This document shows positions 33,119 through 51,140 of a DNA stretch of 64,000 nucleotides, piece after piece; the stretch's first letter is position 1, and the number at the start of each line of letters is the position of its first letter. Below the pieces are notes generated by a model. That model saw only the letters and a program-made list of their open reading frames with translations. It was not told the origin of the DNA and searched no databases. Where the stretch lies: assembly GCA_947624285.1 (NCBI GenBank), contig CANQJS010000002.1, positions 16,993 to 80,992 of the forward strand. Reading direction: 5' to 3'. Position numbers and translations under genes: made by a program. This stretch comes from an uncultured Clostridia bacterium (lineage in GTDB: Bacteria; Bacillota; Clostridia; Oscillospirales; Acutalibacteraceae).

Positions 33119-33196
33119 TTGCAGATAAACTTTCCGGTATCCCTTTTCGGGGGTAAAGCAGCTTCCAAATACGGATATACATTCATGCAAAATCAG

Positions 33197-33224
33197 CGGC
33201 GGCGGGGAGAAATCCCCGCCGCCG
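33197..33224. repeat. Junction palindrome, copy A (loop GAAA)
   Basis: CGGCGGCGGGGA-GAAA-TCCCCGCCGCCG, perfect 12-bp arms. Confidence 0.9.
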
Positions 33225-33326
33225 AAGCGTATAATCTTTGCCCAAAACCGCCTGCTCCCGTTAGGAAACAGACGGCAATTTTTATGTGATTTTGAAACCC
33301 GCGAAAGCGGCATAAATATGTGAATT

Positions 33327-34769
33327 TTAATGCTTATCCAAGCACAAGTCGCCCCGCGCGGAAATGCGCTTTTTGTTTTTCCCCGCCGACAACTGCCTGT
33401 ATGTCGCCGCAATTATCAATGCGGAAATAACGGCGGTCAAAATATCGGAGAGAGGCATGGAATACAGCACGCCGTTCAGCCCGAAAAACATCGGCAAGAG
33501 GAGCGCAAAGCCGATGCCGAACACGATCTCGCGGATCATTGAAAGCATGGTCGATGCGACCGCCTTTCCCATCGCCTGAAGAAAAATAAATGTCGCCTTA
33601 TTAAGGCAGGCAAAAACTATCATACAAAGATAAATCCGAAACGCCTTGACGGCAAAATCCGTATAATAAACGCTCTCGTTTGCCGAGCCGAAAATACCTA
33701 TCAGCTGACGCGGCAAAAATTCCACAACGAGCATGGCGATAATGCCGACGGCAGCCTCGCAGACAAGCAGCAGTGAAAAGAGGCTTTTTACCCGCCCGCG
33801 GCGGTTTGCGCCCATATTGTACCCCACAACAGGAATACACCCCGCCGCCATACCGATAACGACGGAAATTACGATTTGAAACACTTTCATTACGATCCCG
33901 ACGACTGCCATGGGGATCTGAGCGTAGGCGGCCTGCCCGAAAACGGGATCCTGCGCACCGTATTTACGAATCATATTGTTGATCGCAGCCATAGCCGCCA
34001 CCAAAGAAATCTGCGAAAGAAAGCTGCATATTCCGAGTGAAAGCGTGCGCCCCGCAATTTTGCTGTTCCAACGAAAATCACGCCCCGATAATTTAACGGA
34101 CTTTATATGCAGAAGATACCAAAGGGAAAGCAGAGCCGTTGCGATTTGACCGATCACCGTTGCCACTGCCGCGCCCATCATTCCCCAATGAAACAAAAAG
34201 ATGAATATCGGATCGAGAATAATGTTGAGAATCGCTCCGAAAAGGGTGGAGATCATTGCGAATTTCGGACTTCCGTCCGCACGGATTACGGGATTCATCG
34301 CCTGCCCGAACATATAAAACGGAATACCGACAGAAATATAAAAGAAATATTCTTTTGAAAGCGCAAAGGTCTCCTCGTTGACTGTCCCTCCGAACAGCGT
34401 GATGATAGGCGTTGAGAAAATCAAATACAAAGCGGAGAGAAAGACGCTGCTTATAACCGTAATCAAAACCGAAAGCCCGATGCTGTTTGCGGCGGCTTTT
34501 TGATTTCCTTTTCCGAGATTAAGGCTGACAAAAGAGCAGCAGCCGTCCCCAATCATAACCGCGATAGCAAGCGCAATGACCGTGAGGGGAAACACCACCG
34601 TGTTGGCGGCGTTGCCGTAGGAGCCGAGATAGCTTGCGTTTGCAATAAAGATTTGATCGACTATATTGTAAAGTGCGCCTACAAGCAGTGAAATTATACA
34701 TGGCACGGAATACTTGCCCATAAGTCTGCCCACTCTTTCCGTGGCAAGATAAGATTGATTTTTTTCCAT
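33327..34769 (-). CDS. MATE efflux transporter (MepA-like), copy 1
   Basis: 'PCIISLLVGALYNIVDQIFI', 'IRADGSPKFAM', 'NIILDPIFIF'; ATG 34769 after GGAGG. Confidence 0.95.
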   Translation of the reverse strand: MEKNQSYLATERVGRLMGKYSVPCIISLLVGALYNIVDQIFIANASYLGSYGNAANTVVFPLTVIALAIAVMIGDGCCSFVSLNLGKGNQKAAANSIGLSVLITVISSVFLSALYLIFSTPIITLFGGTVNEETFALSKEYFFYISVGIPFYMFGQAMNPVIRADGSPKFAMISTLFGAILNIILDPIFIFLFHWGMMGAAVATVIGQIATALLSLWYLLHIKSVKLSGRDFRWNSKIAGRTLSLGICSFLSQISLVAAMAAINNMIRKYGAQDPVFGQAAYAQIPMAVVGIVMKVFQIVISVVIGMAAGCIPVVGYNMGANRRGRVKSLFSLLLVCEAAVGIIAMLVVEFLPRQLIGIFGSANESVYYTDFAVKAFRIYLCMIVFACLNKATFIFLQAMGKAVASTMLSMIREIVFGIGFALLLPMFFGLNGVLYSMPLSDILTAVISALIIAATYRQLSAGKNKKRISARGDLCLDKH

Positions 34770-34790
34770 ATAGTAACCTCCCATAAACAT

Positions 34791-34854
34791 AAAAACGGCG
34801 CAAGCCCCAAAGTTGGACTTACGCCGTTTCAGCTACACACTGATGATAATTATA
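34791..34854 (-). promoter_or_regulatory. MATE promoter and leader terminator/attenuator (identical in copy 2, 41191-41254)
   Basis: TG-A-TATAAT, then AAACGGCGTAAGTCC-loop-GGGCTTGCGCCGTTTTT ahead of the RBS. Confidence 0.6.
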
Positions 34855-35033
34855 TCAGATATTTTTCTTTTTTCAAAGGCAATTCTGCACAAAAATTATA
34901 CGGATAGGGTAAAGAAAAAATGATCAAAAAACTCACCGCGAAATATATAAATACCGCTTTCGGCCGATAGCAATACATAGCTTTCGGATTTACAAAACGG
35001 TTTTTGATAAGCATTTGATAATAAATTTATGTG

Positions 35034-35057
35034 GCGGCAGGGATAAGTCCTTGTCGC
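35034..35057. repeat. Junction palindrome variant (also at 41435-41458)
   Basis: GCGGCAGGGA-TAAG-TCCTTGTCGC; 18/24 identical to copy A. Confidence 0.7.
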
Positions 35058-35070
35058 TGTTCTGTTGCGC

Positions 35071-35104
35071 CATACTTGACGTTGACGTAAGTATGTGCTA
35101 TACT
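35071..35104 (+). promoter_or_regulatory. R-M1 MTase-operon promoter overlapped by a palindrome
   Basis: TTGACG-17 bp-TATACT overlapping CATACTT-GACGTTGACGT-AAGTATG. Confidence 0.75.
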
Positions 35105-35132
35105 TATTACATAGTTCTTTCGGAGGTGTATT

Positions 35133-35381
35133 ATGGATTCTGCAAAATTGCTAGAGTGGCTTAAGGTTGAAAAGAAAATGAGCGCTCGCTCTGCCAAAGA
35201 TGTTCTTTCCCGCTGCTCAAGAGTTTACAGAATTTTAGGTGTTGACTGTTTTGACGACAATACTTTGGATATTCTTCAAAACAGCGATGAGTTTAAATCA
35301 AGCTCTATGTTTATAAAATCTCAGCTCAAGAGGGCGGTAACTTTGTGTTTGGAATTTACCAAAAATACCGAAACGGAGTAA
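35133..35381 (+). CDS. 82-aa helical protein (integrase N-terminal SAM-like; putative DNA-binding)
   Basis: RBS GGAGGTG; 'LLEWLKVEKKMSARSAKDVLSRC...SQLKRAV'. Confidence 0.7.
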   Translation: MDSAKLLEWLKVEKKMSARSAKDVLSRCSRVYRILGVDCFDDNTLDILQNSDEFKSSSMFIKSQLKRAVTLCLEFTKNTETE

Positions 35382-35544
35382 ATTATACCGTTTTGAGCGC
35401 GTATGCTCACAGGGATTTTGAAACATTCCATTTTACCAAAAGAATGAAAGCGGGTTTATTATCAAGCCGAAAATTCCGCATATGCCCCTGCGGTTTACAT
35501 GGCTGCCAAAACATCGTTACTGCCTTGGGTTAGGAGAAAACAAT

Positions 35545-36633
35545 ATGAAACGATATAACATAATGGATTTATTTGCCGGCGTCGGTGGATTAAGTTACGG
35601 CTTTTCAATGCTTCCTCAATTTGATATCGTTGCGGCGAATGAAATCGAAAAAGACATTTCCGTTGCGTATACATTGAATTACCCGAATGTGAAAATGCTG
35701 AATTGCGATATAAACAATCTGACCGAAGATATTTTGAAAAAGGCGCTGAAAGGGCAAAAAGTCGATATAGTTGTCGGAGGTCCTCCCTGCCAGTCTTATT
35801 CTACTCTCGGCAAAAGGCAAAACGATGAAAAGGCGAATTTGTTTAAGCAATATAAAAGAGTTTTAAAAATCCTGCAACCAAAAGCATTTATCTTTGAAAA
35901 TGTTGTGGGTATCCTCAGCATGGATAAGGGAAACCTTTTTAAGCAAGTTCGGGCCGAATTTGAGGAGCTCGGTTATAATTTGCGTTACAAAGTGTTAGAT
36001 GCCGTTGATTTCGGTGTTCCGCAGCGCAGACAGAGAGTTTTTCTCGTGGGATTTAAGGAAAAGAATGACTTTGTTTTTCCTTCTCCCACGCACGGCGACG
36101 GGTTGAAACCGTATGTTACGCTTAAAGACGCTATCGGCGATCTGCCGACTTTAAAAAGCGGAGAGCAAAAAAGCAATTACGATACCGGTATCACAAACGA
36201 ATTTCTTAAATTTGTCAGAGATAATAACGCATCTGTTGTTGAGGAGCATATCGCTCCCAAAAACGGAGAGCATCTTATTAAAATTATGCAAACATTAACA
36301 GACGGTCAATCTAAAGATGATTTGCCCGAAAATATCCGTCCGAAAAGCGGATACGGTAATACTTACGCGAAATTATGGTGGGGCAAGCCGTCTACAACAA
36401 TTACAAGAAATTTCGCATGTCCTTCTTCTTCAAGATGTATTCATCCAAGGGATTCAAGAGCTATGTCGATTCGAGAAGGAGCAAGATTACAGAGCTTTCC
36501 GGACGATTATAAATTCTATGGATCTGACGGTATGAAACGATTAGAAATCGGTAACGCTGTCCCGCCGCTTCTTTCAATTGCTATTGCTAAACAAATGCTT
36601 GAAGCGTTAAAAAATCAAGACGCCGTTAATTAG
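35545..36633 (+). CDS. DNA (cytosine-5)-methyltransferase, R-M1
   Basis: Motifs 'DLFAGVGG', 'GGPPCQ', 'FENV', 'PQRRQR', 'REGARLQSFP', 'IGNAVPP'. Confidence 0.97.
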   Translation: MKRYNIMDLFAGVGGLSYGFSMLPQFDIVAANEIEKDISVAYTLNYPNVKMLNCDINNLTEDILKKALKGQKVDIVVGGPPCQSYSTLGKRQNDEKANLFKQYKRVLKILQPKAFIFENVVGILSMDKGNLFKQVRAEFEELGYNLRYKVLDAVDFGVPQRRQRVFLVGFKEKNDFVFPSPTHGDGLKPYVTLKDAIGDLPTLKSGEQKSNYDTGITNEFLKFVRDNNASVVEEHIAPKNGEHLIKIMQTLTDGQSKDDLPENIRPKSGYGNTYAKLWWGKPSTTITRNFACPSSSRCIHPRDSRAMSIREGARLQSFPDDYKFYGSDGMKRLEIGNAVPPLLSIAIAKQMLEALKNQDAVN

Positions 36634-36667
36634 TGCGGCGTCCCGGTTAAGGCAGTATATCAAACGA

Positions 36668-37507
36668 TTATTTTAGGAGGTTTTCTAATTTGCCATAGTC
36701 GTGATGAAACTGTATTTGGCCTTGATGCCATTGAACAAAACCAAATGGCAATTGAATCGTGGTTCCTCCATATGAGGATCCATAATAGGTTTCATTTTTT
36801 GCAGCTTCTTGAACGGCATTACAAACATCCTCTATGGAGAATATGTCATCCGTATTATTTTCGCCAAGAAGATTTATGTACCATACAAAGTCAGACCATT
36901 CTTTGCTATCTTGCACGGCGCCCATAGAAAATGACAGTTTTGCAAGTTTGTAAGCATTATCAGTAAACCATTGCAATAACGCATTATAAAAATGCTCATT
37001 ATATGCCTTTAATGTAGTGGCATTTAAGCTCTTGTGCCGCAATTGCAAGTCATAATTTTTAGTTATAGTTTGATCGCCATATGCTTTAATGATATCCACG
37101 GCATCATCGGCAGCTGACCAAAACAGGTTGATTGCCCTACACACATCAAGAGGAATTTTACTTTTGAACTGCCTTTCAAAAGTATCAATAAACAGTCCTG
37201 CCTTTACAAGATACACTTGTCCCCCAAGACTCTTTTTAATGGAAATATTGATTACTTCATTTGTGTCAAGATAGACTTTCAAATCTGTTTTAGATTTTGT
37301 TTTTCGTCCATTGACGCTAGGCACATTTTTTTCGTGTAACCCGCCAACCGTTGTTTGTATGATATGAGCATCAAGCCTATCTAATCTTCTTAATAAGGAA
37401 GCAGAAAAATTCTCGTCAGTATCCAAGCGCATTTTTACTAAGTCTTCATTCTTATGGCCCGACAATTTAGCGTGTTGCCAACCTGTGGCCCGATTTCTGT
37501 GTTCCAT
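36668..37507 (-). CDS. Putative type II restriction endonuclease (PD-(D/E)XK), R-M1
   Basis: Convergent to the C5-MTase and directly downstream of the C gene; 'KTDLKV...NISIKK' catalytic-like motif. Confidence 0.75.
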   Translation of the reverse strand: MEHRNRATGWQHAKLSGHKNEDLVKMRLDTDENFSASLLRRLDRLDAHIIQTTVGGLHEKNVPSVNGRKTKSKTDLKVYLDTNEVINISIKKSLGGQVYLVKAGLFIDTFERQFKSKIPLDVCRAINLFWSAADDAVDIIKAYGDQTITKNYDLQLRHKSLNATTLKAYNEHFYNALLQWFTDNAYKLAKLSFSMGAVQDSKEWSDFVWYINLLGENNTDDIFSIEDVCNAVQEAAKNETYYGSSYGGTTIQLPFGFVQWHQGQIQFHHDYGKLENLLK

Positions 37508-37509
37508 AT

Positions 37510-37719
37510 CTATTCCTCCACAAACAATTTGTAAGTTTCAATTTCAAGAGCATCGGCAATTCGTTGCACATTTTCAAGAGCAATACTACGGCGATAGCAT
37601 TCAATAGCACTAATATAAGTGCGATGTAACCCACATTTTTCGGCAAACGCTTCTTGAGATAGACCTAATTTAGTGCGGTATTTTTTTTAATTGCTACCGA
37701 AAACTTTAACAATATCCAT
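37510..37719 (-). pseudogene. R-M controller (C) protein gene with a nonsense codon
   Basis: Near-identical to 44237-44449, but codon 11 TTA(Leu) is TAA at 37689-37687; frame otherwise intact. Confidence 0.88.
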
Positions 37720-38110: not shown

Positions 38111-39388
38111 CTATTTTTTTGTTTCCCAAGTCTGATTAATGCGCATTGCAATTGCACGGTTGCATAAATGAACAAGATCATCATTCATATTAACTATAGA
38201 AATTAATTGATTAAATTTGATCGATCCCAATTCAACACACATTTTAGCAATGAATTCATCTATAAAAGAAGAGCCCACCATTATTACATCTGTAAAATCA
38301 AGTATTATTGGTTTACCTGTTCTTTTGATAATGTTTAAAACATCTGTTTTTAAAGCTTTTCCTGAAGGACGGGTTCCAAAATCTTCCGCATACTCAATAA
38401 CTTTATATTTTAGCCAATCATTATTAAGTTGCTTCATATCTTCAATTCTTATATCAAAATCTTCAAATTCACCCATACTGCGCAACGCTTTTTTAATATC
38501 GGTTTTATTCCCGAGTTCAAGCTGAAAATCAACAGTAGTACTTTTATGATTAATATCAACTATTGGATTATTAGACCAGAATTTTTCGTCATTATTGTTA
38601 AACATTAATGTGGAATTTCCTGTTGAAATAGCTAATCTTCCGCCATTTTCCTTGATGATTTGTGAAAGTCCATATAAGCCGTTTCCTTGGCCTTGACCAT
38701 CTCCAACACCTTCTTGCATAGCTAATCGGATTGCTTCAATTTCATTTTCGGTATCCAAATTACCATTAGATAATGACGCTTGAATTCCGATTCCGCAATC
38801 GTAAACACAAATAGCAATAAGATTAGTTTTCTTATGATATTGTGCCATAACATAACCTCTATTGCTTTGACTATGTAGTAATACATTATCTAATATCTCG
38901 TAAACGCACCACATCATACCCTTTAAAACACCATCTTCGCATATGGTGGTTCTGCTTAGTTTGTCAACGAAAGCTTGGTTAATTGCAGCCGCTTGAGGAC
39001 ATCCATTATTGTCTGATTCATACATGAAAATCTTATTAAATGGATTTCTGATTTTATTTATTTCGTCAACACTTAAATTAAGAGGATCTTTAAAACAGCA
39101 GCGTGTTAAATAAGGATTATTTTTTATAACAACATTTATATCTATTTTGTATATTTCTCTATATTCTTGTATTAATGCGGCAATGGGCACACAAGCATCC
39201 GGAAATATTTGCTCTTGAGCACAAAGGCACCTGATTTCTATAGTTTTTATATCAACAGAATCTCTGCTTATATATCGTATAGCCTTTTGCATACAACGAA
39301 TAAAGTCAGATACGCAAAACTGATTTTCCATTTTATGAATTGTTATAATATTTTTATTTATATCAACATTTTGTTTAGATTTTGACAT
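38111..39388 (-). CDS. GHKL/HATPase-like ATPase fused to a C-terminal STAS-like (DUF4325) domain
   Basis: 'EILDNVLLHS', 'DCGIGI', 'GQGNGL'; C-terminal 'FGTRPSG...ILDFTDVIMVGSSFIDE'; very AT-rich. Confidence 0.85.
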   Translation of the reverse strand: MSKSKQNVDINKNIITIHKMENQFCVSDFIRCMQKAIRYISRDSVDIKTIEIRCLCAQEQIFPDACVPIAALIQEYREIYKIDINVVIKNNPYLTRCCFKDPLNLSVDEINKIRNPFNKIFMYESDNNGCPQAAAINQAFVDKLSRTTICEDGVLKGMMWCVYEILDNVLLHSQSNRGYVMAQYHKKTNLIAICVYDCGIGIQASLSNGNLDTENEIEAIRLAMQEGVGDGQGQGNGLYGLSQIIKENGGRLAISTGNSTLMFNNNDEKFWSNNPIVDINHKSTTVDFQLELGNKTDIKKALRSMGEFEDFDIRIEDMKQLNNDWLKYKVIEYAEDFGTRPSGKALKTDVLNIIKRTGKPIILDFTDVIMVGSSFIDEFIAKMCVELGSIKFNQLISIVNMNDDLVHLCNRAIAMRINQTWETKK

Positions 39389-39595
39389 ATTAACCCCTTT
39401 ATTGTTATTTGATTTAATGATAGCATTATTTTAATATTAAATCAATTATAATACAATTCCGCTGTTTCAAAATGTTGAACTTTTCTTATGGACTTCGTAA
39501 GGATGTGTTATTATGTTTATAATAAGGCCCCAAATATTCTTTTGTTATCAACAGCGATAACAAGATAACACGGATATACATTCATGCAAAATCAG

Positions 39596-39623
39596 CGGCG
39601 GCGGGGATTTCTCCCCGCCGCCG
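39596..39623. repeat. Junction palindrome, copy B (loop inverted, TTTC)
   Basis: CGGCGGCGGGGA-TTTC-TCCCCGCCGCCG. Confidence 0.9.
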
Positions 39624-39726
39624 GAGCGTATAATTTTTGCCAAAAACCGCCTGCTCCCGTTGAGGAACAGACGGCAATTTTTTATGTGATTTTGAAACCC
39701 GCGAAAGCGGCATAAATATGTGAATT

Positions 39727-41169
39727 TTAATGCTTATCCAAGCACAAGTCGCCTCGCGCGGAAAGGCGTTTTTTGTTTTCTCCCGCCGACAACTGCCTGT
39801 ATGTCGCCGCAATGATCAATGCGGAAATAACGGCGGTCAAAATATCGGAGAGAGGCATGGAATACAGCACACCGTCCAGCCCGAAAAACATCGGCAAAAG
39901 GAGCGCGAAACCAACGCCGAACACGATCTCGCGTATCATTGAAAGCATGGTCGATGCGACCGCCTTTCCCATCGCCTGAAGAAAAATAAATGTCGCCTTA
40001 TTAAGGCAGGCAAAAACTATCATACAAAGATAAATCCGAAACGCCTTGACGGCAAAATCCGTATAATAAACGCTCTCGTTTGCCGAGCCGAAAATACCTA
40101 TCAGCTGACGCGGCAAAAATTCCACAACGAGCATGGCGATAATGCCGACGGCAGCCTCGCAGACAAGCAGCAGTGAAAAGAGGCTTTTTACCCGCCCGCG
40201 GCGGTTTGCGCCCATATTGTACCCCACAACAGGAATACACCCCGCCGCCATACCGATAACGACGGAAATTACGATTTGAAACACTTTCATTACGATCCCG
40301 ACGACTGCCATGGGGATCTGAGCGTAGGCGGCCTGCCCGAAAACGGGATCCTGCGCACCGTATTTACGAATCATATTGTTGATCGCAGCCATAGCCGCCA
40401 CCAAAGAAATCTGCGAAAGAAAGCTGCATATTCCGAGTGAAAGCGTGCGCCCCGCAATTTTGCTGTTCCAACGAAAATCACGCCCCGATAATTTAACGGA
40501 CTTTATATGCAGAAGATACCAAAGGGAAAGCAGAGCCGTTGCGATTTGACCGATCACCGTTGCCACTGCCGCGCCCATCATTCCCCAATGAAACAAAAAG
40601 ATGAATATCGGATCGAGAATAATGTTGAGAATCGCTCCGAAAAGGGTGGAGATCATTGCGAATTTCGGACTTCCGTCCGCACGGATTACGGGATTCATCG
40701 CCTGACCGAACATATAAAACGGAATACCGATTGAAATATAGAAGAAATATTCTTTTGAAAGCGAAAAGGTCTCCTCGTTGACTGTTCCGCCGAACAGCGT
40801 GATGATAGGCGTGGAAAAAATCAAATACAACGCGGAGAGAAAGACGCTGCTTATAACCGTCATCAAAACCGAAAGCCCGATGCTGTTTGCGGCGGCCTTT
40901 TTATTCCCTTTTCCGAGATTCAAGCTGACAAAAGCGCAGCAGCCGTCCCCGATCATAACAGCGATAGCAAGCGCAATGACCGTAAGGGGAAACACCACCG
41001 TGTTTGCGGCGTTGCCGTAGGAGCCGAGATAGCTTGCGTTTGCAATAAAGATTTGATCGACTATATTGTAAAGCGCGCCTACAAGCAGTGAAATTATACA
41101 TGGCACGGAATACTTGCCCATAAGTTTGCCCACTCTTTCCGTGGCAAGATAAGATTGATTTTTTTCCAT
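39727..41169 (-). CDS. MATE efflux transporter (MepA-like), copy 2
   Basis: Differs from copy 1 by only a handful of residues. Confidence 0.95.
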   Translation of the reverse strand: MEKNQSYLATERVGKLMGKYSVPCIISLLVGALYNIVDQIFIANASYLGSYGNAANTVVFPLTVIALAIAVMIGDGCCAFVSLNLGKGNKKAAANSIGLSVLMTVISSVFLSALYLIFSTPIITLFGGTVNEETFSLSKEYFFYISIGIPFYMFGQAMNPVIRADGSPKFAMISTLFGAILNIILDPIFIFLFHWGMMGAAVATVIGQIATALLSLWYLLHIKSVKLSGRDFRWNSKIAGRTLSLGICSFLSQISLVAAMAAINNMIRKYGAQDPVFGQAAYAQIPMAVVGIVMKVFQIVISVVIGMAAGCIPVVGYNMGANRRGRVKSLFSLLLVCEAAVGIIAMLVVEFLPRQLIGIFGSANESVYYTDFAVKAFRIYLCMIVFACLNKATFIFLQAMGKAVASTMLSMIREIVFGVGFALLLPMFFGLDGVLYSMPLSDILTAVISALIIAATYRQLSAGENKKRLSARGDLCLDKH

Positions 41170-42764: not shown

Positions 42765-42765
42765 A

Positions 42766-43554
42766 ATGGGCAGATACAATGATTTGGATTTGTCTAAATG
42801 GAAAGAATATACTGATATTGAAACCGATTCTTTATGGATAGTTGATAAAAGGGATAACAGCGGCGCTCACAGCGGACATTATCATGGGAATTTTGTTCCT
42901 CAAATCCCGCATCAATTATTTTCAAGATATACCAAAAAGGGAGACTGGATTTTGGATCCTTTTATGGGCAGCGGCACTTCGGTTATTGAAGCGCAACGAA
43001 TGGGACGCAACTCAGTCGGTATTGAAGTTCAACGCGATGTTGCAAAGGAGGCTTACGATAGGATTGTCACAGAAAAAAACGACTCTACAAGAGCCAAAGT
43101 TATAGTCGCGGACAGTCGAACATGCGAAATGAATAAAATTTTAGAGGCTGAAGGAATAGATAAAGTTCAGTTTGTAATAATGCATCCTCCATACTGGGAT
43201 ATAATAAAATTTTCTGATAATCCTAATGATTTATCAAATTGTAACAGTATTGATGAATTTTTGAATTCTTTCGGCAAAGTGGTTGATAATTCAATAAATG
43301 TTTTGGAAAAAAATAGATATTGTGCAGTTGTTATTGGTGATAAGTATGCAAACAGTCAAGTTATTCCTTTGGGCTTTTATTGCATGAATTTAATGATGGA
43401 AAAAGGGTTGCTCTTAAAAGCTGTTTTGGTCAAAAATTTTGGTGAAACTAAAGGGAAGTCAAATAAACAAGGAATATGGCGTTATAGAGCGCTGGCAAGC
43501 GATTTCTACATATTTAAGCATGAATACATTTTTGTATTTAAAAAGGTAAAGTGA
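42766..43554 (+). CDS. Second amino (N4/N6) DNA methyltransferase
   Basis: 'GNFVPQIP', 'LDPFMGSGT', 'HPPYW', 'HEYIFVFKK'. Confidence 0.88.
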   Translation: MGRYNDLDLSKWKEYTDIETDSLWIVDKRDNSGAHSGHYHGNFVPQIPHQLFSRYTKKGDWILDPFMGSGTSVIEAQRMGRNSVGIEVQRDVAKEAYDRIVTEKNDSTRAKVIVADSRTCEMNKILEAEGIDKVQFVIMHPPYWDIIKFSDNPNDLSNCNSIDEFLNSFGKVVDNSINVLEKNRYCAVVIGDKYANSQVIPLGFYCMNLMMEKGLLLKAVLVKNFGETKGKSNKQGIWRYRALASDFYIFKHEYIFVFKKVK

Positions 43555-43626
43555 GCAATGCCACTTTACCTATTATAAGTGATATTTAAATATTAGCTTA
43601 TTTACAATAAAACATAAGTATTCACA

Positions 43627-44235
43627 TCATTTCTCCATTAAATGCTTTCTGAATTCCAACGGATCATACCAGAAGCAACCTTCACAGGCATTTTCTTCAC
43701 CATTGTGATGTGCTCCACCCTTGTAATATGACATAGGATATCCTAATTTTTTGGCATCGTATCTTATTCCTGTTCGGATGCATTCTTTGCAAAATTGTCG
43801 TTTTGCATCATTGGCAGCTTTGCTCAACGGCTGAAAATCAGATAACTTTTGATTTTCATTTCGCATAACTCTATCTTCATTTTTCATACCATTTTTATGG
43901 TCAACCTCGGGATTTGATGTGCCTAACACAACACAACGCTGACTTTGGATTTGTTTTTTAATATCAGCCCTGATATGCTGTGAGTAATCACCATTATTAA
44001 ATCCAACGGTTCTTATTGCATCGGTTTTGTTTCCCGGAGTAATTGATTTGTCTCGCTCAATAATGTATTTTTTTCCAAATGTACCATCATCTCTTGACCA
44101 ACCGGCGCCGTTTAAAAGCTGCAGTCCTTGGTATTCACCTACAAACTCATCAACAGAAACCCATCTGCTACAGCCGTTTTCATCTATTCCAGCTAATTCT
44201 TCAAATAATTCTATTTTCGTTTTTCTTTTTGGCAT
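43627..44235 (-). CDS. IceA1/NlaIII-family HNH restriction endonuclease, R-M2
   Basis: 'IELFEELA..DENG.SRWV', 'TPGN..DAIR..GFN', 'EVDHKNG', 'DFQPL...ND.KRQ.C..C', 'C.GC..YDP'. Confidence 0.88.
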   Translation of the reverse strand: MPKRKTKIELFEELAGIDENGCSRWVSVDEFVGEYQGLQLLNGAGWSRDDGTFGKKYIIERDKSITPGNKTDAIRTVGFNNGDYSQHIRADIKKQIQSQRCVVLGTSNPEVDHKNGMKNEDRVMRNENQKLSDFQPLSKAANDAKRQFCKECIRTGIRYDAKKLGYPMSYYKGGAHHNGEENACEGCFWYDPLEFRKHLMEK

Positions 44236-44236
44236 T

Positions 44237-44449
44237 TTATTTTTCCTCCAAAAACAGCTTGTATGCTTCAATTCCAAGAGCATCGGCGATTCGTTGCACA
44301 TTTTCAAGGGCTATGCTACGGCGATAACACTCAATAGCACTAATATAAGTGCGATGCAATCCACATTTTTCGGCAAACGCTTCTTGAGATAGACCTAATT
44401 TGGTGCGGTATTTTTTTAAATTGCTACCGAAAACTTTAACAATATCCAT
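44237..44449 (-). CDS. R-M controller (C) protein, XRE HTH
   Basis: 'FGSNLKKYRTKLGLSQEAFAEKCGLHRTYISAIE...IALENVQRIADAL'; directly upstream of the REase. Confidence 0.9.
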   Translation of the reverse strand: MDIVKVFGSNLKKYRTKLGLSQEAFAEKCGLHRTYISAIECYRRSIALENVQRIADALGIEAYKLFLEEK

Positions 44450-44531: not shown

Positions 44532-45347
44532 ATGAAGTTAAGAAATTTTCTATATTTAAATACAAATATAGTGGAAGAATATATTTCTGCTATTGAGGGC
44601 TATACATATGACGAAGAATCACAAGCTATAACATCGAGTAGTGAGAACTCTGTAAACGCTGGCTTAGGATTAAAGGCGGTTTCAGCGGGAGGAGCTCATA
44701 ATGGAAAACAATCTGAAGAAATTAAGCGTTCTGTTAAAATAAGCGATGCCGCAAAATTTGATAAGATCTACACTTATCTTCAATCAGGTGATGAAGAAGA
44801 AAAATTAAAATATTATGAGTTTCTATCCGAAGATATTTACAACGCATTGAGACGAGACGATTTTATTGAAGTGTTGGTAACAGCAAGGTTCTCAAAAACA
44901 AAAGAATTGATAGATGGCGTGAAAAAAATATCCGATTTAGTAACGCAAGTGCAAGGAATAACTGATCAAAAATTCCTTGGGAAGAAAGAAAGTGAAGCAA
45001 TCAATGGCTTTTCGGCCTTAGGAAAAATGAAGTCAGGTAAAGAAATATCTTGTGTTTTTAATTTTGATGATAGGAAATATCCTTTGGTTGCATACTTGGA
45101 TGAAAATTATTTCAGATGTGAACAGGATAATTTTATAGGACAATCCTATATGCTGTGCAAAATCATAAGAAAAATACCAAAAGGACAACATGTGAAGATC
45201 GATGAAATATTCGACGATATAAAAAAACTCCCTCTTAATCATGATCAAAGGCGGAAAATACTTAAAAACATGGATAACCCCGATATTATCAAGGATATTG
45301 TAAAGGGTCCAGCCATGATAGTTGTTCCGGTCGCTGTATATCAGTAA
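44532..45347 (+). CDS. DUF6414-like hypothetical protein
   Basis: 'NFLYLNTNIVEEYISAIEG' N-terminus and 'PVAVYQ' C-terminus pattern; RBS GGAGG. Confidence 0.7.
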   Translation: MKLRNFLYLNTNIVEEYISAIEGYTYDEESQAITSSSENSVNAGLGLKAVSAGGAHNGKQSEEIKRSVKISDAAKFDKIYTYLQSGDEEEKLKYYEFLSEDIYNALRRDDFIEVLVTARFSKTKELIDGVKKISDLVTQVQGITDQKFLGKKESEAINGFSALGKMKSGKEISCVFNFDDRKYPLVAYLDENYFRCEQDNFIGQSYMLCKIIRKIPKGQHVKIDEIFDDIKKLPLNHDQRRKILKNMDNPDIIKDIVKGPAMIVVPVAVYQ

Positions 45348-45412
45348 ATATTTGAAAACTATAAATTAGCCAAGACGATAATTAAATCTTTAAGTTTAGA
45401 AAGGGCAAGAAT

Positions 45413-45583
45413 ATGACAGAGCAAGAATTGAAAGCATTTGCAAAGTGGTGTTTAGACAATGGCAAACGAAAATTAACTAAAGAAGAAAAAGAGGCAATAA
45501 AGTCAGCCATTGATCAGGCAAATAGCCTAAATGAATTGCTGCAGGTCGTTTTTATAAGCTTAGTCATTGATTCAAATAGGTAA
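45413..45583 (+). CDS. 56-aa hypothetical protein (not in ORF track)
   Basis: RBS GAAAGGG; MTEQELKAFAKWCLDNGKRKLTKEEKEAIKSAIDQANSLNELLQVVFISLVIDSNR. Confidence 0.65.
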   Translation: MTEQELKAFAKWCLDNGKRKLTKEEKEAIKSAIDQANSLNELLQVVFISLVIDSNR

Positions 45584-45598
45584 TAAATGAAAAATTAG

Positions 45599-45626
45599 CG
45601 GCGGCGGGGAGAAATCCCCGCCGCCG
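45599..45626. repeat. Junction palindrome, copy C
   Basis: Identical to copy A and shares the upstream context ATG(A/C)AAAAT(T/C)AG. Confidence 0.9.
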
Positions 45627-45692: not shown

Positions 45693-47171
45693 TTAAAACT
45701 TAAAAGGTAATTCGTTGGGATAAGGAATTTGCGCGGGACGATTATATGCAATATCCTTAACGCCCAAATATTTGAACACCTCAGAAAGTATTTTGCCGTA
45801 ATGGCCGAACGCGACCGCGCCGTGATGGGGGAAGCGCTTCGCGATAAGCACATTTCGGTAAAATCTGCCCATTTCGGGTATTGCGAAAACGCCTATGCCG
45901 CCGAATGATTTTGTGCGGACATCAAGCACTTCGCCCTGCGCGATATACGAACGCAAAACTCCCTCGCTGTCGCATTGCAATCTGAAAAACGTAATATCGC
46001 TTGGGGCAATATCCCCCTCGAGCGTGCCGCGGCTTATATCCGGCTCGCTGCCCTCCGGCTCAAGCACTCTGTGCTGAATAAGCTGATATTTTATCGCTCT
46101 GCCGCTGCACATTTTGCAGCTTGGCGTGTTGCCGCAATGGAAGCCCATAAATGTGTCCGTCAATTTATAATCGGTTGACGGCTTAATGTGCTTTTCGTAC
46201 ATATCCTTGGGAACGGAATTGTTGATATCGAGAATCGTGACGGCGTCAAGACTCGCGCACGCGCCTATGTATTCGCTCAAAGCGCCGTAAATATCAACTT
46301 CGCAGGCGATGGGTATGCCCTTTGATGCGAGACGGGAATTGACATAGCAAGGCTCAAAGCCGAATTGACTCGGAAACGCCGGCCAGCATTTGTTCGCGAA
46401 AGCGACATATTTTCTGCTGCCCTTGTGCTCCTCTGCCCAATCGAGCAGAGTCAGTTCATACTGCGCCATTCTCTCGTTAAGGTCGTGGTAGAAATTGCCG
46501 TCTCCCATTTCCTGCGCCATTTCTTTCATAACATCGGGGATCCTCGGATCTCCCTTATGCTTTTTATAGGACACAAGCAAATCAAGCTCGCTGTTTTCCT
46601 CGATCTCAACGCCCAATTCATAAAGCCCCTTTATGGGCGCGTTGCAGGCAAAGAAATCCTGCGGCCTCGGGCCGAAGGTGATAATTTTAAGATTTTTAAC
46701 TCCGATAACGGCTCTCGCAACAGGGATAAAATTCTTTATCATATCCGCGATCTCATCAGCCGTGCCCACGGGATAATCGGGTATATACGCGTTGAGATGG
46801 CGCATGCCCAAATTATACGAGCAGTTGAGCATTCCGCAATACGCGTCGCCCCTGCCGTTTATCAAATCGTTTTCGCTTTCCTCGGCGGCGGCAACGAACA
46901 TACAAGGGCCGTTAAAGTTCTTCGCGATAAGTGTTTCGGGCGTTTCCGGTCCGAAGTTGCCCAAAAATACTACAAGCGCGTTACAACCCGCTTTGCTTAC
47001 GTCCTCAACCGCCTTTTGCATATCGGTTTCGTTTTCGACCGTAACGGGGCACTCATAAAGCTCTCCCTTATACGCCTCCACGATAGCCTTGCGCCGTTTT
47101 TCGCTTAATTCAATGGGAAAACAATCGCGAGATACGGCAACAATGCCGAGCTTAACATTTGGGATATTCAT
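45693..47171 (-). CDS. FucI-like pentose isomerase (clostridial XylA-II type)
   Basis: 'VKLGIVAVSRDCFP', 'FGPETPE', 'FMGFHCGNT', 'FPHHGAV'; abuts the xylulokinase gene. Confidence 0.85.
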   Translation of the reverse strand: MNIPNVKLGIVAVSRDCFPIELSEKRRKAIVEAYKGELYECPVTVENETDMQKAVEDVSKAGCNALVVFLGNFGPETPETLIAKNFNGPCMFVAAAEESENDLINGRGDAYCGMLNCSYNLGMRHLNAYIPDYPVGTADEIADMIKNFIPVARAVIGVKNLKIITFGPRPQDFFACNAPIKGLYELGVEIEENSELDLLVSYKKHKGDPRIPDVMKEMAQEMGDGNFYHDLNERMAQYELTLLDWAEEHKGSRKYVAFANKCWPAFPSQFGFEPCYVNSRLASKGIPIACEVDIYGALSEYIGACASLDAVTILDINNSVPKDMYEKHIKPSTDYKLTDTFMGFHCGNTPSCKMCSGRAIKYQLIQHRVLEPEGSEPDISRGTLEGDIAPSDITFFRLQCDSEGVLRSYIAQGEVLDVRTKSFGGIGVFAIPEMGRFYRNVLIAKRFPHHGAVAFGHYGKILSEVFKYLGVKDIAYNRPAQIPYPNELPFKF

Positions 47172-48602
47172 TTATTTTTCCTCCTTATAAAAATCCCTTA
47201 AAGCGGGATATAATTTTTTGAATTTATCATATTTGTTCTTGTAAATATCAACAAGTTCTTTATTCGGATTTACTGTGTAAAGAATATCATTTTCAATCTC
47301 CGGATTAAGACCTGTTGCCCGCGCCGCGAGAATCGCTCCGCCGAGCGCAGGACCTTCATTATTTATAACGCTTATCTGAGTTGCGAGAACATTTGAAAGG
47401 ATTTCCATCCACATCCTGCTTTTTGAGCCGCCGCCGCAAACGGTGGCTTTTTTTATCCCGTTCGGTATAAGGCTGACGCAATCTTTGATAGCAAAAGCGA
47501 CCCCCTCAAAAAGCGCCGTTTGCAGATCAGCCCTTTCCGTATTGAGCGACAGACCGATGAAAGCGCCGCGAATATCCGAATCGTTATGCGGGCATCTTTC
47601 CCCCGCGAGATACGGCATAAAATAAAGCTGTTTGTTTGCCGTATCGGTATTTAATTCGGCGGTGTTTTTACCGTAATCATCCGTATCAAAAATGTTTTCA
47701 ACAAGCCATTTGTTTGCGCTCGCGGCGGAAAGAATACAGCCCATTAAATGATATTTTCCGTTCGCGTGGCAGAAGGAATGGAGCGCGGGATTGGCTGTTT
47801 TCACATAATTCTCGGTCGGCACAAAAACCGTTCCGCTTGTGCCGAGCGAAATATTGCATTGGCCGTCATAAACGGTATTCGTTCCGATCGCCGCGGCGGC
47901 ATTGTCTCCCGCGCCTGCGCAAACGGTTATGTTTTCGCCGAGCCCAAATTCGGGCTTGACTCTGCCTATGGGCTTGCCGCTCTCATAAACTGCCGGCAGC
48001 ATATCCTTTGATATGCCGCAAAGCTCAAGCATTTCATCGGACCAGCGGCGGTTTTCAACGTCAAACAGCAGCGTTCCCGACGCGTCGCTGACATCAGTTG
48101 CGAGAACGCCCGTGAGCATGTAATTTATATAATCCTTCGGCAGGCAGATTTTGGCGCATTTCGCAAAATTTTCGGGCTCGTTTTCTTTTACCCAAAGGAT
48201 TTTGGTTGCGGTAAAGCCCGCGAAAGCGATATTGCCCGTCAATTTTTGCAGGGTAGCCTTTCCGACCACATTGTTGAGATAATCGGTCTGCCTGCCTGTT
48301 CTCGTATCGTTCCAGAGAATGGCGGGGCGAATGACATTATAGCTTTTATCAAGCATAACAAGGCCGTGCATTTGACCGCCCACGCCTATGCCCGCGATAT
48401 CGCCGGCGGCGTTATCCGAAGTCAGCTCGCAAAGCCCCTCTTTAACGGCATTCTGCCAATCGGCGGGGTCTTGCTCGCTTTTGCCGTCCTCGGAAAAGTC
48501 AAGCGGATATGTCTTTGAAACCTGCCCGATAATATTCATTTTTTCATCGGTCAGAATTATTTTTACAGACGATGTTCCCAAATCAATTCCGATAAATTTC
48601 AT
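47172..48602 (-). CDS. xylB: Xylulokinase (FGGY family)
   Basis: 'IGIDLGTSSVK', 'GQMHG', 'RPAILWND.R', 'GAGDNAA', 'PYLAGERCPH'. Confidence 0.92.
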   Translation of the reverse strand: MKFIGIDLGTSSVKIILTDEKMNIIGQVSKTYPLDFSEDGKSEQDPADWQNAVKEGLCELTSDNAAGDIAGIGVGGQMHGLVMLDKSYNVIRPAILWNDTRTGRQTDYLNNVVGKATLQKLTGNIAFAGFTATKILWVKENEPENFAKCAKICLPKDYINYMLTGVLATDVSDASGTLLFDVENRRWSDEMLELCGISKDMLPAVYESGKPIGRVKPEFGLGENITVCAGAGDNAAAAIGTNTVYDGQCNISLGTSGTVFVPTENYVKTANPALHSFCHANGKYHLMGCILSAASANKWLVENIFDTDDYGKNTAELNTDTANKQLYFMPYLAGERCPHNDSDIRGAFIGLSLNTERADLQTALFEGVAFAIKDCVSLIPNGIKKATVCGGGSKSRMWMEILSNVLATQISVINNEGPALGGAILAARATGLNPEIENDILYTVNPNKELVDIYKNKYDKFKKLYPALRDFYKEEK

Positions 48603-48662
48603 TGTATCACCCGATTTCGGCCTTTGTTATGCAGGATTTAATAATTCCGTGAAAATTTAAAA

Positions 48663-49571
48663 TCAAAACAACTTTTTCTTTTTGAAAAATATAAATTCGG
48701 CAACTACTATCGCTATCGCCGCTATTATCACCGTGAGATAACCGAAGCGCCACTTCAGCTCCGGCATATTTACGAAATTCATTCCGTACCAACCGGTAAG
48801 CAGAGTGAGCGGCAGAAAAAATGTTGTAACTATCGTGATTATTCCCATTGTTTTGTTTTGCTTTGCGTCCTGCTCCGACTGATAAAGCTCCCTAAGCTGA
48901 AGCATATTCTCGCGCAAAAGAAGCACATGATTTTGCAGCCTTTCGGCGCGCTTTGCGAAGCTTTCCCATTCCTGCGGGTTTTTGACCGTCTCTTTGCACG
49001 CCGAAGAGTGAAACAGTTCTCCTATATCGGCAAGCTGATCGTAATAGGCGTTGAGTTCGGAGAGCTTTTGCCTGTGCCGCGTGAGCTCGGCAAAGAAATC
49101 CTTTGTCTCTCCGCGGCCTATATTCTCCTCCAGCTTTTCGGCTTCGGCCTCTATGTGCAGAAGATACATCAAATCGTCCTCGGTGGCAAGCTCCAAAACG
49201 GACAGAAGAAGCCTATCGGGCGAATAGGGCTCGGGCAGGGACTTTGCGTGCTTTTCAAGCCAAGGCTTAAACCTGCCGCCGTCCTCAAAAAAGCATATTT
49301 CCCGCTCGGTAAGATAAAATCCAAATGTCAACGCGGGCGACTTTTCTTCCTTTTTTTGAGGGATCCTGACTGTGCCGATAACGCAATCCCTGAATGCCTC
49401 CGCCTTGCAGTAGCGTATCGAGCCGAGGCTGTGCGCAAGTTCTTTTCGGCGGGGGAATTTATCCGCGTTTTCGTGAAATTCCTCACTGCTCACAACCGTA
49501 AAAATCCGCCGCTTTTGCTCGCTTTGCTCCTCGGAGAATATTTTTGCATTCATTTCCGTTGTGTTTTCCAT
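48663..49571 (-). CDS. CorA-family Mg2+ transporter
   Basis: 'FLPLTLLTGWYGMNFVNMPEL'. Confidence 0.92.
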   Translation of the reverse strand: MENTTEMNAKIFSEEQSEQKRRIFTVVSSEEFHENADKFPRRKELAHSLGSIRYCKAEAFRDCVIGTVRIPQKKEEKSPALTFGFYLTEREICFFEDGGRFKPWLEKHAKSLPEPYSPDRLLLSVLELATEDDLMYLLHIEAEAEKLEENIGRGETKDFFAELTRHRQKLSELNAYYDQLADIGELFHSSACKETVKNPQEWESFAKRAERLQNHVLLLRENMLQLRELYQSEQDAKQNKTMGIITIVTTFFLPLTLLTGWYGMNFVNMPELKWRFGYLTVIIAAIAIVVAEFIFFKKKKLF

Positions 49572-49667
49572 ATTCTCTGCCTCCGTTTGCGCCGTGTATC
49601 ATAATAGCGGCGCGCCCTTACCTCGCCGCATATTTCGATGCGAATAAAACGCGCTCAAACAAACGCT

Positions 49668-50717
49668 TTACGCCTTTATTTGCTCAAACGAATACATCGT
49701 TTTCGCGTTTTCGTCAAGCGTGTTTATCACCGTAAGCGTACAGGAAGGCTCTATATAATCATCCCTTCCCGCTCCGTATCCGCTTACGGAACTAAGCTGA
49801 TAATATCTGCCGTTATAAAACGAACACATATTGTTGCTGTGCTGGTGGGCACACGAAATGAGCGTAATGTTCGCATTTTCTTTGATGATCTCGTCAAACA
49901 CTCCGTCGCCTTTTATGCCGTCGTAGGGATCTGCCTCATACATATCTATCCCTTCATAAGCCTCGCCGCTGTCATACGCGTTTTGAAAGGCGTTTGTCGG
50001 CATATGGAAAAAGACGCTCGTTTTCACATTTTCGGAAAGAACCTCTTCGTTGAGCCAATTTGCCTGATTTTCTGAAATGGGCTGATACGGTCCTATCGCT
50101 TTGGGCTTTCTCATGCCTGAATCCATAACGGCTATGCGGTGCGTAAGGTCCTCATTGCGATAAATGTCTATCATAAACTGCATTGCGCCGTCTATATTCT
50201 TTTCATTTCCGTAAAGAAAATGCCCATAGCGCATCATAAAAGATATAATGCTTTCGTTGCTTCCGTCAATTTCGGAATCGTTGTTTCCGGGGGCAAATGT
50301 CCACGGTATTTCATATTGCTCTATAAGCTTCGCGAATATGTCTATAGCGCCGAATTTATCGTATTTAGCGTTTAAATTGAAGCCGTCAACAAGATCGCCG
50401 TCAACAATTATCAGGTCGCAGGGAGTTTTATCCAAAATCGCCTTTAAACCGTCAAGCGTATGTCTGTCGTTTTCACAAGTTCCGTTTATAAAATGTGTGT
50501 CGTTTATTTTAAGCACCCTGAAAATTCCGTTGTCGTCCGTCGATAATTTCGCCGATAGATCATCGGAATATACGGCGGCGTAACCGTCGGCGGCGTTTGA
50601 TTTATCGCAATTAAATCTGTAAAACAGATAACCTCCGAACGCCCCCGCGATAATCAGCGCGGCTGCCAAAACCGCCGATATGATTTTTATGGTTACCTTT
50701 TTCCTGTTTTCACGCAT
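49668..50717 (-). CDS. Membrane-anchored calcineurin-like metallophosphoesterase
   Basis: 'INDTH', 'DGDL', 'PGNND', 'FFHMP', 'AHQH'; N-terminal TM helix. Confidence 0.88.
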   Translation of the reverse strand: MRENRKKVTIKIISAVLAAALIIAGAFGGYLFYRFNCDKSNAADGYAAVYSDDLSAKLSTDDNGIFRVLKINDTHFINGTCENDRHTLDGLKAILDKTPCDLIIVDGDLVDGFNLNAKYDKFGAIDIFAKLIEQYEIPWTFAPGNNDSEIDGSNESIISFMMRYGHFLYGNEKNIDGAMQFMIDIYRNEDLTHRIAVMDSGMRKPKAIGPYQPISENQANWLNEEVLSENVKTSVFFHMPTNAFQNAYDSGEAYEGIDMYEADPYDGIKGDGVFDEIIKENANITLISCAHQHSNNMCSFYNGRYYQLSSVSGYGAGRDDYIEPSCTLTVINTLDENAKTMYSFEQIKA

Positions 50718-50820
50718 AACATTTCCTCCGACAAGCGGGCTGATTTTTATTTTCCCGCGCCTTTTGCCGCTTAGTTCTATGCTATAATTATACATAAGCG
50801 CAAATTTAATGTCAACAAAT

Positions 50821-51140
50821 CGGCTGAGGTGTGAAATCCCCGCCGCGCTGTTGCGCCCACTTGACGATGGCGTATGTATATTCTATACTTATTGCATAGT
50901 TTTTTCGTAAGCGTATCATAGATTCTGCAAAATTGTTAGAGTGGCTTACGGTTGGAAAGAAAATCTGCATTCGCTTTACCAAAGATGTGCTTTTCCGATG
51001 ATTATAAATTCTATTGCTCGGGCGGTATAAAAAGACCGGAGATCGGAAATGCCGTTCTTCCATTGCTTTTCGTAGCAATAGCCAAACAGATGTTAAAAGC
51101 AATCAAAAAAAGTGAAGCCGCCGAATAACCGGCGACTTTA
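50821..51140 (+). pseudogene. Decayed, internally deleted relic of the R-M1 cassette (palindrome, promoter, 82-aa gene 5' end fused to C5-MTase 3' end)
   Basis: 50848-50990 aligns with 35062-35205; 50990-51135 aligns with 36495-36640 (DDYKFY...EIGNAV.PLL..AIAKQML). Confidence 0.85.

What the first reader, a model, noticed from the sequence alone, without database searches (positions are those of the whole stretch)
33171..51140. Palindrome-delimited, integrase-less array of R-M/cargo cassettes
Seen: one GC-rich palindrome family marks the module junctions. Perfect CGGCGGCGGGGA-N4-TCCCCGCCGCCG copies lie at 33197, 39596 and 45599, all with the same ATGxAAAATxAG lead-in. A variant GCGGCAGGGA-TAAG-TCCTTGTCGC lies at 35034 and 41435, and a decayed copy at ~50821-50846. 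The intervals hold whole modules: MATE | R-M1 + STAS-ATPase | MATE | R-M2 + DUF6414 + small ORF | xylose/CorA/phosphoesterase | R-M1 relic. Homology between the two MATE repeats stops 2 bp after the variant palindrome, and both the intact R-M1 cassette and its relic 16 kb away begin right after a palindrome. The perfect copies have no adjacent T-tract, so they are not classical terminators. Inference: the palindromes act as recombination or insertion sites (REP- or attC-like) for shuffling defence cassettes, with the recombinase acting in trans or through host recombination. I know no described system with this layout.
Basis: partly seen in the sequence, partly recalled or inferred. Interest (0 to 1): 0.85.

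Follow-up and report, generated by a model that had tools for sequence, protein, structure and literature searches.

The report
Terminator relics of stacked mobile elements
The repeated palindromes are real and match a hairpin found right after the tnpV gene of mobile elements in related gut bacteria, so they are likely ordinary transcription terminators left by several decayed elements piled up at a known insertion hotspot, not the sites of a new gene-shuffling system.

Summary
The shared lead-in is the complement of a U-tract on the minus strand, and the variant copies pair fully only on the plus strand through G-U. The same hairpin family sits 7-10 nt after the stop of tnpV in 16 of 90 TnpV loci of the genus, against 2 of 1163 other gene ends. 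There it ends the backbone of guaA-integrating mobilizable elements (integrase, relaxase, tnpV) and variable cargo follows, a methyltransferase in 6 of 16. The array lies just downstream of guaA. The two variant copies sit on decayed guaA-type att junctions in correct register. The best reading is tandem accretion of decayed elements (CIMEs) reduced to att relic + terminator + cargo, plus one 1.9-kb duplication. Close relatives shuffle the same genes at this hotspot without the palindrome, and sister strains also break where no palindrome lies. Not an integron, REP/RAYT or pdif system. A hairpin-targeted cargo-exchange mechanism is not excluded (about 12%).

The parts
25672..27231 (+). guaA (GMP synthase); its 3' end is the integration site
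   Evidence: Pfam; att core at 27220
27232..31645 (.). Integrase-less element next to guaA, bracketed by 11-bp-period arm-type repeats at 27311 and 31627 (inferred CIME)
   Evidence: no integrase or relaxase family hit
32546..33118 (+). GNAT acetyltransferase
33185..33224 (.). P1: perfect hairpin 33197-33224; lead-in 33185-33196 is the minus-strand U-tract; predicted terminator of MATE1
33168..35059 (.). Copy 1 of the 1.9-kb repeat (P1 + MATE1 33327-34790 + att relic + P2)
   Evidence: 96.4% to copy 2
34931..35021 (+). Decayed guaA-type att junction: core-like bases, inverted repeat, arm-type repeat at 35003
35034..35057 (+). P2: variant hairpin, fully paired only on + strand (two G-U pairs); tnpV-terminator family
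35062..37719 (.). R-M1 cargo: promoter, 82-aa ORF (35133-35381), C5 methyltransferase (35482-36633), putative endonuclease (36668-37507, by position only), controller-type HTH gene with an internal stop (37510-37719)
38111..39388 (-). HATPase/STAS-like (DUF4325) cargo gene; homologues lie just after guaA or a guaA-core copy in G011, G075, G078
39539..39566 (.). Arm-like remnant (inverted and direct copies of the arm motif); read by eye, not scored
   Evidence: sequence; loose ends at 39552
39584..39623 (.). P3: perfect hairpin 39596-39623, loop inverted relative to P1; predicted terminator of MATE2
39567..41460 (.). Copy 2 of the 1.9-kb repeat (P3 + MATE2 39727-41190 + att relic + P4)
41332..41422 (+). 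Decayed guaA-type att junction; 33/39 identical to the sequence after the guaA stop in G152
41435..41458 (+). P4: variant hairpin, + strand only
41476..44449 (.). R-M2 cargo: HTH_26, D12 adenine MTase, N6/N4 MTase, IceA-family endonuclease, intact controller-type HTH gene (44237-44449)
44532..45583 (+). DUF6414 gene and 56-aa ORF (45413-45583)
45587..45626 (.). P5: perfect hairpin 45599-45626 between convergent genes; predicted bidirectional terminator
45693..50795 (-). Fucose-isomerase-like sugar isomerase, xylulokinase, CorA, metallophosphoesterase (not one unit in sister strains)
50821..50846 (+). P6: decayed hairpin (only the right half recognisable)
50848..51123 (+). R-M1 relic: promoter and start of the small ORF joined to the 3' end of the methyltransferase (internal deletion)

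Best explanation
The palindromes match the hairpin that follows tnpV in guaA-integrating mobilizable elements of this genus and are likely intrinsic terminators, kept when several such elements probably piled up downstream of guaA and lost their mobility genes. Shown in relatives: intact elements read guaA core - inverted repeat - arm-type repeat - HTH - tyrosine integrase - NikA/MobC - AAA_25 - relaxase - tnpV - hairpin - cargo (often R-M) - arm - guaA core. Cargo either starts with its own promoter just after the hairpin or points back into it. Shown in the window: P2 and P4 sit about 12 nt after an arm-type repeat of a decayed guaA-type junction and just before R-M cargo; P1, P3 and P5 sit behind minus-strand cargo. 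Inferred: an integrase that is no longer present inserted successive elements at the guaA att sites; deletions then removed integrase-to-tnpV, and selection kept the terminators because cargo needs them. Inferred: ordinary homologous or slippage-type recombination made the 1.9-kb MATE duplication, the R-M1 relic and the loop inversion. Modules therefore start at palindromes because the palindrome is the last base of the old backbone; the site-specific recombination sites are the att relics.
For: Terminator anatomy: minus-strand U-tracts on all 3 perfect copies; variant folds at -19.3/-22.6 kcal/mol on + but -11.7/-9.1 on -; in 19 tnpV-linked hairpins 14 G-U against 3 A-C pairs on the sense strand. 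tnpV link: family hairpin within 60 nt of the stop in 16 of 90 TnpV loci against 2 of 1163 G000 ORF ends; 3 of the 5 other genus hits of the loose pattern follow tnpV; the perfect 28-mer follows tnpV in L109. Cargo: methyltransferase within two ORFs in 6 of those 16 (25 of 27 ORFs scanned). Parent elements in G151, G006, G113, partly G168. Decay series: G064 keeps only tnpV, G139 only its 3' end, G152 and the window only arm + GC-rich hairpin. Att relic: 33/39 identity to the G152 guaA flank, E 3e-5; pattern found only in G152 and G000 of 145; core-like bases in register with the arm; arm-type repeats after guaA in 16 of 30 genus loci, one probably chance. G150 and G155 carry xylBA and MATE, with GNAT (G150) or R-M (G155), at the same hotspot in another order, without the hairpin. 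Accretion of IMEs and CIMEs, and guaA as an IME target, are described (PMC5704250).
Against: No tnpV coding remnant is detectable upstream of any of the six sites (8-74% of null hairpins score as well). A profile of att flanks scores the relics only at E 0.1 and 0.36. The profile that ranks P5, P4, P1, P2 just behind G000's own tnpV was trained on loci picked by the hairpin pattern, so it is partly circular. P1/P3 and P5 share 38-40 bp with unrelated flanks, so that copy was duplicated locally or came twice from near-identical elements; neither is shown. No att relic was scored beside P1, P3, P5 or P6. Six copies in one locus is unusual: one element region (G113) had a second copy, and none of 20 further regions (264 kb) had a convincing one. 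74 of 90 TnpV loci use other terminators, and the family also ends non-tnpV genes.
Confidence: 0.72

Rival explanations
1. One reading: the hairpin is itself the substrate of a site-specific (attC- or REP-like) recombinase acting in trans, which inserts and shuffles cassettes at it.
For: Window junctions fall within 0-4 nt of P2, P4 and P6. Among 20 tnpV-hairpin loci, homology ends -5 to +33 nt from the hairpin end in 91 of 93 aligned pairs (pairs not independent, and ends before -5 excluded by my filter). One sister-strain contig leaves the window 7 nt after P4, another 25 nt after P6. Loop inverted at P3.
Against: The ends are spread (-1 to +19 nt even in pairs over 85% identical), not at one base. 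About 9 sister-strain breakpoints were read from the listed (truncated) tables: only 2 lie within 25 nt of a hairpin, and those at 43558 and 48625/48652 are over 2 kb from any. No recombinase carries the motif. Hairpin absent beside 80 of 80 MATE homologues and at the G150/G155 junctions. Mixed gene orientation and own promoters.
Confidence: 0.1
2. A terminator-targeting DDE transposase (IS1182-like, by resemblance) duplicated the hairpin at insertion and caused adjacent deletions or carried cargo; the element was later lost.
For: The genome holds 5 full and 1 truncated copy of a 277-bp element, the full ones lying between two copies of a whole terminator hairpin. Matches in 87 of 144 genus genomes; duplication in 19 of 25 loci with both ends. 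Stem-loop targeting and duplication are proposed for IS1272 (PMC5678879).
Against: No element ends next to any of P1-P6: scores -5 to -25 against 26-28 for true ends. No PF13751 transposase in the 75%-complete assembly. P1/P5 share the 12-nt U-tract too, more than the element usually duplicates.
Confidence: 0.07
3. The hairpins are generic clostridial terminators unrelated to the mobile elements, multiplied by local duplications in an unstable region.
For: The perfect core occurs in 34 loci across unrelated phyla, mostly single and often near gene ends; it also appears in 25 viral contigs, only 1 next to tnpV. Other repeated terminator families exist in G000. No tnpV remnant.
Against: About 100-fold enrichment after tnpV; att relic directly before P2/P4 and R-M cargo directly after, as in intact elements.
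Confidence: 0.08
4. The array is a chimeric assembly of strains that each carry one MATE and one R-M cassette.
For: Short-read assembly; source-run contigs break at the repeats, so the path through the two MATE copies is not independently shown.
Against: In run X1 single contigs span P2 (34812-37660), P4 (41378-44390), P5 (44435-45846) and P6, and one joins STAS to the P3 lead-in (37705-39599). Cargo depth (10-12) is not below flank depth (6-8) (X1 may be the source, so not independent).
Confidence: 0.03

Closest known systems
Tandem accretion of IMEs and CIMEs at one tRNA or housekeeping-gene att site (Guedon et al. 2017, PMC5704250, section 2.3 read; guaA listed as an IME target in its table, passage seen)
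   Same: Decayed elements without integrase or transfer genes stacked behind a target gene; att relics between them; R-M cargo.
   Different: Att relics here are heavily decayed, and what remains visible is a repeated terminator. The parent family (tyrosine integrase + Mob_Pre or MobA relaxase + TnpV at guaA in this genus) and its terminator-cargo boundary were not found described in my searches.
Intrinsic (Rho-independent) terminators (features recalled)
   Same: GC-rich stem, short loop, U-tract, G-U wobble on the sense strand, position after stop codons.
   Different: P2, P4 and P6 have lost the gene they would terminate; tails of P1/P3 are interrupted U-tracts.
Integrons and integrase-less attC clusters (features recalled)
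   Same: Array of defence cargo punctuated by palindromes, no local integrase.
   Different: No R boxes or extrahelical bases in the perfect copies; multi-gene modules in both orientations with own promoters; hairpin at the 5' edge of cargo.
REP/RAYT repeats (features recalled)
   Same: Short GC-rich intergenic palindromes.
   Different: Three to six copies in one locus, none elsewhere; no RAYT gene with the motif.
IS1272/IS1182-type stem-loop-targeting elements (PMC5678879, abstract and passages)
   Same: Can duplicate a whole hairpin; a candidate non-autonomous element doing so is present elsewhere in this genome.
   Different: No such element ends flank the six hairpins.

Membership tests
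CIME/IME accretion at guaA | Located downstream of the target gene 3' end with att-type sequences between units | tested here: met
   Arm repeats at 27311, 31627, 35003, 41404; core-like bases in register; 33/39 identity to G152 guaA flank. Scored only for P2/P4; weak by profile.
CIME/IME accretion at guaA | Integration and transfer genes lost | tested here: met
   No integrase, relaxase or tnpV in the window; best G000 match to the guaA-element integrase is 25-26% and lies outside it
CIME/IME accretion at guaA | Intact relatives with integrase and relaxase at the same site | tested here: met
   G151, G006, G113
CIME/IME accretion at guaA | Att sites still recombine (cis-mobilizable) | not testable with these tools
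   Relics look decayed; needs an excision assay
tnpV-terminator family | Sequence match to the hairpin after tnpV | tested here: met
   P6 not matched
tnpV-terminator family | tnpV coding remnant upstream | tested here: not met
Intrinsic terminator | GC stem-loop followed by U-tract on the sense strand, after a stop codon | tested here: met
   P1, P3, P5; P2/P4 fold on + but were not called by the scanner
Intrinsic terminator | Transcripts end there | not testable with these tools
   No RNA run held the stretch (asked for DNA runs; 0 on record as RNA)
Integron / attC cluster | attC with R boxes and extrahelical bases (recalled) | tested here: not met
   Read from sequence; no attC covariance model was run; Rfam finds only a tRNA
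Integron / attC cluster | Mostly single, promoterless, co-oriented cassette genes (recalled) | tested here: not met
REP/RAYT | Many copies genome-wide | tested here: not met
   3 perfect copies, all here; 0 of 60 relatives
REP/RAYT | Y1 HUH transposase flanked by the motif | tested here: inconclusive
   Only a Y1 fragment at the end of contig C14, no motif on its visible side; assembly 75% complete
pdif/Xer modules | AT-rich 11-6-11 XerC/D sites (recalled) | tested here: not met
   GC-rich 12-4-12
IS1182-like hairpin-targeting element | Element ends abutting the duplicated hairpins | tested here: not met

The most novel reading that the evidence does not exclude
The hairpin after tnpV is both terminator and the cargo-capture site of a large family of gut-clostridial guaA elements. 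A hairpin-recognising activity (element integrase, relaxase, TnpV itself, or the genus's terminator-targeting transposase) inserts or swaps defence cargo at it, and this window is a six-slot array built that way: a terminator-punctuated integron analogue that would also give TnpV a function.
Probability: 0.12. Interest if true: 0.8.

Novelty: new member of a known kind. Interest (0 to 1): 0.3.

Why it matters
As best explained it is ordinary: stacked, decayed integrative elements at guaA. It still gives two usable facts. The hairpin after tnpV marks where variable, often R-M, cargo begins in these elements, so it can be used to mine defence genes and to recognise fully decayed elements. And terminator repeats can mimic cassette arrays in scans. 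If the novel case held, it would be a new route of defence-gene exchange in gut Clostridia and a function for TnpV.

Tried and rejected
Exact lead-in + palindrome in the species-representative genomes: 0 hits. Exact variant in metagenome contigs: 0. Arm + hairpin pattern in viral contigs: 0; the arm motif alone gave 10 unrelated hits. The 241-bp P2 region against the genus gave mostly chance hits, two of them terminator-like. The 82-aa ORF as an integrase N-terminal fragment (my guess from memory): no PADLOC or PHROG family, 1 weak hit in 398 class genomes, no Atlas result; unresolved. tnpV coding remnant upstream of the hairpins: not significant. Ends of the 277-bp element beside the hairpins: absent. 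My interim note that the second G113 hairpin directly precedes its R-M1-like methyltransferase was wrong: it ends an MFS gene, and a guaA-core-like sequence lies between. Rfam: only a tRNA. Uncovered parts in sister-strain runs (for example R-M1 in X5-X9) show nothing about absence. Lay-reads tables were truncated, so breakpoint counts are from the listed rows only. Paper searches (listings only unless stated) found no description of a tnpV terminator or of a terminator-delimited cassette array; the library lacks most subscription papers and no supplements were read. PMC9208149 and PMC10782964 (passages) added nothing on mechanism. Earlier scan findings: none in 3 look-ups.


Full report
Observation. 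The three perfect palindromes, two variants and one decayed copy are at the stated places; five sites match against 0.01 expected. The perfect 28-mer occurs only here in the 1.59-Mb, 75%-complete assembly and in 0 of 60 relatives. The MATE repeat is 1.9 kb, 96.4% identical, and ends 2 bp past the variant; the R-M1 relic is the cassette's promoter joined to the end of its methyltransferase. P1/P3 and P2/P4 are pairs inside that one repeat, so at most four sites are independent. The window lies near the replication origin (gidA, gidB, parAB, serS) and the array starts 6 kb downstream of guaA. The best-matching runs are labelled rabbit gut metagenome. That the host is a clostridium is my inference from gene content.

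The hairpins look like terminators. The minus strand is the sense strand of the genes ending 102, 103 and 66 nt away. The variant pairs fully only on the plus strand through two G-U pairs (-19.3 and -22.6 against -11.7 and -9.1 kcal/mol), which points to a single-stranded structure, not a symmetric double-stranded site. The same core occurs singly in most of 34 unrelated genome loci and in 25 viral contigs, often near gene ends and with T tails.

Where the hairpin comes from. In the closest relative found (G152, 92% over purA-guaA) the bases right after the guaA stop match the lead-in of P4 at 33 of 39 (E 3e-5); the pattern occurs in G152 and G000 only, of 145 genomes. Across the genus guaA is followed by an inverted repeat and an 11-bp-period repeat about 58 nt out in 16 of 30 loci; reading these as integrase arm sites is recalled knowledge. 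P2 and P4 carry that repeat with core-like bases in register. Two guaA-proximal loci had the hairpin directly after tnpV, so I surveyed TnpV: present in 113 of 145 genomes. Of 90 loci taken from the top of that list, 16 have the family hairpin 7-10 nt after the stop, against 2 of 1163 gene ends in G000. The perfect version follows tnpV in L109. Among 19 tnpV-linked hairpins there are 14 G-U and 3 A-C pairs on the sense strand. A methyltransferase follows within two ORFs in 6 of the 16 (25 of 27 ORFs scanned); others have regulators, transporters or convergent genes.

The parent element. G151, G006 and G113 hold intact guaA elements: tyrosine integrase, NikA-like protein, AAA_25, Mob_Pre or MobA relaxase, TnpV, hairpin, cargo such as D12 methyltransferases with AlwI- or DpnII-family endonucleases, and in G006 an arm repeat and a guaA core at the far end. 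G113 has them in tandem. G064 keeps only tnpV, G139 only its 3' end, G152 only arm plus a GC-rich hairpin-like run at a contig end. The window's P2 and P4 are the last step of that series. The controller-type gene of both window R-M cassettes has 76-79% matches in the cargo of G168 and G006, and the STAS-ATPase lies just after guaA or a core copy in three other genomes. Accretion of IMEs with decayed CIMEs, and guaA as a target, are described in PMC5704250 (passages and section 2.3).

Tests of the recombination-site idea. For it: junctions lie within 0-4 nt of P2, P4 and P6, and homology between tnpV loci ends -5 to +33 nt from the hairpin in 91 of 93 aligned pairs (20 loci, dependent pairs, earlier ends excluded by the filter). 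That is also what the end of a conserved backbone gives, and the ends do not share one base. Against it: G150 and G155 (80-87% identical) carry xylBA and MATE, with GNAT or an R-M system, at the same hotspot in other orders, with repeats of the isomerase 3' end and, in G155, of the guaA end, but no hairpin. No hairpin flanks 80 of 80 MATE homologues. Sister-strain contigs (about 93-98% identical) leave the window at 32504, 33124, 39552-39563, 41465, 43558, 45689-45696, 48625/48652, 50871 and 51164; two are within 25 nt of a hairpin and two over 2 kb away (truncated tables). One X7 contig joins the GNAT end to 41403, the arm repeat, and an X8 contig links P4 to R-M2. G000 has 6 tyrosine and 2 serine recombinases and one Y1 fragment, none in the window or with the motif; none is close to the guaA-element integrase (25-26%).

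What does not fit. No tnpV coding remnant precedes any site. Att relics score weakly by profile and were not shown for P1, P3, P5 or P6. P1 and P5 share 38 of 40 bp with unrelated flanks, and multi-copy hairpins are rare in intact elements (1 region, none convincing in 20 more). So a local duplication of the terminator, by a route not shown, is needed. A 277-bp element that duplicates whole terminators is common in the genus but has no ends here. Source-run contigs span or abut the junctions at even depth, which argues against a chimera but is not independent.

Verdict. Real features, mostly known biology: terminators inherited from stacked, decayed guaA elements (0.72). Not a member of integrons, REP/RAYT or pdif systems on the features tested. 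Paper searches found no account of the tnpV terminator as cargo boundary; the library is incomplete. The chance that the hairpin is an active cargo-exchange site is about 0.12. Interest 0.3.

Noticed in passing
G000:C1:237551-237827 (L169/L172); also C3, C4, C5, C7, truncated on C12: A 277-bp non-coding element, each full copy between two copies of a different whole terminator hairpin. Matches in 87 of 144 genus genomes; duplication in 19 of 25 loci with both ends. Resembles IS1182/IS1272-type stem-loop targeting; no transposase found. A clean natural set for studying structure-directed transposition.
   Followed up: partly
L075:2043-2113/4358-4428 (G150); L076:4414-4470/8756-8812 (G155): The last 57-71 bp of the sugar isomerase gene are duplicated and form the 3' end of the MATE gene; MATE's 3' end differs at the same point in G000, G150/G155 and G154. 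Possibly a second integration site.
   Followed up: partly
window 37510-37719: The controller-type HTH gene of R-M1 has an in-frame stop at codon 11; its 90%-identical twin in R-M2 is intact.
   Followed up: no
window 39608-39611: The loop of P3 is the reverse complement of the P1/P5 loop within an otherwise 96%-identical repeat; loops also differ between some duplicated hairpins flanking the 277-bp element.
   Followed up: no
window 52334-54694: Segment with a thioester-domain gene, absent between the GH32 and Rrf2 genes of G152, with 99% and 88% copies at the ends of contigs C21 and C10 and weaker ones elsewhere: a repeated, probably mobile unit.
   Followed up: no
window 58369-58447: Top (weak, E 0.08) hit of the guaA att-flank profile, at the 3' end of serS; may be another integration site.
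   Followed up: no
window 8449-8487 and 13134-13172: Two 92%-identical terminator-like hairpins in inverted orientation 4.6 kb apart.
   Followed up: no
window 35133-35381: 82-aa ORF heading R-M1, with no family in PADLOC or PHROGs and one weak hit in 398 class genomes.
   Followed up: partly
window 61420-61439: Palindrome between parA and the second ParB-family gene that resembles parS (motif recalled).
   Followed up: no
L455 (G064:C15): Small guaA CIME carrying tnpV, an HTH-methyltransferase, an Eco47II-family endonuclease and a TIR-domain gene.
   Followed up: no
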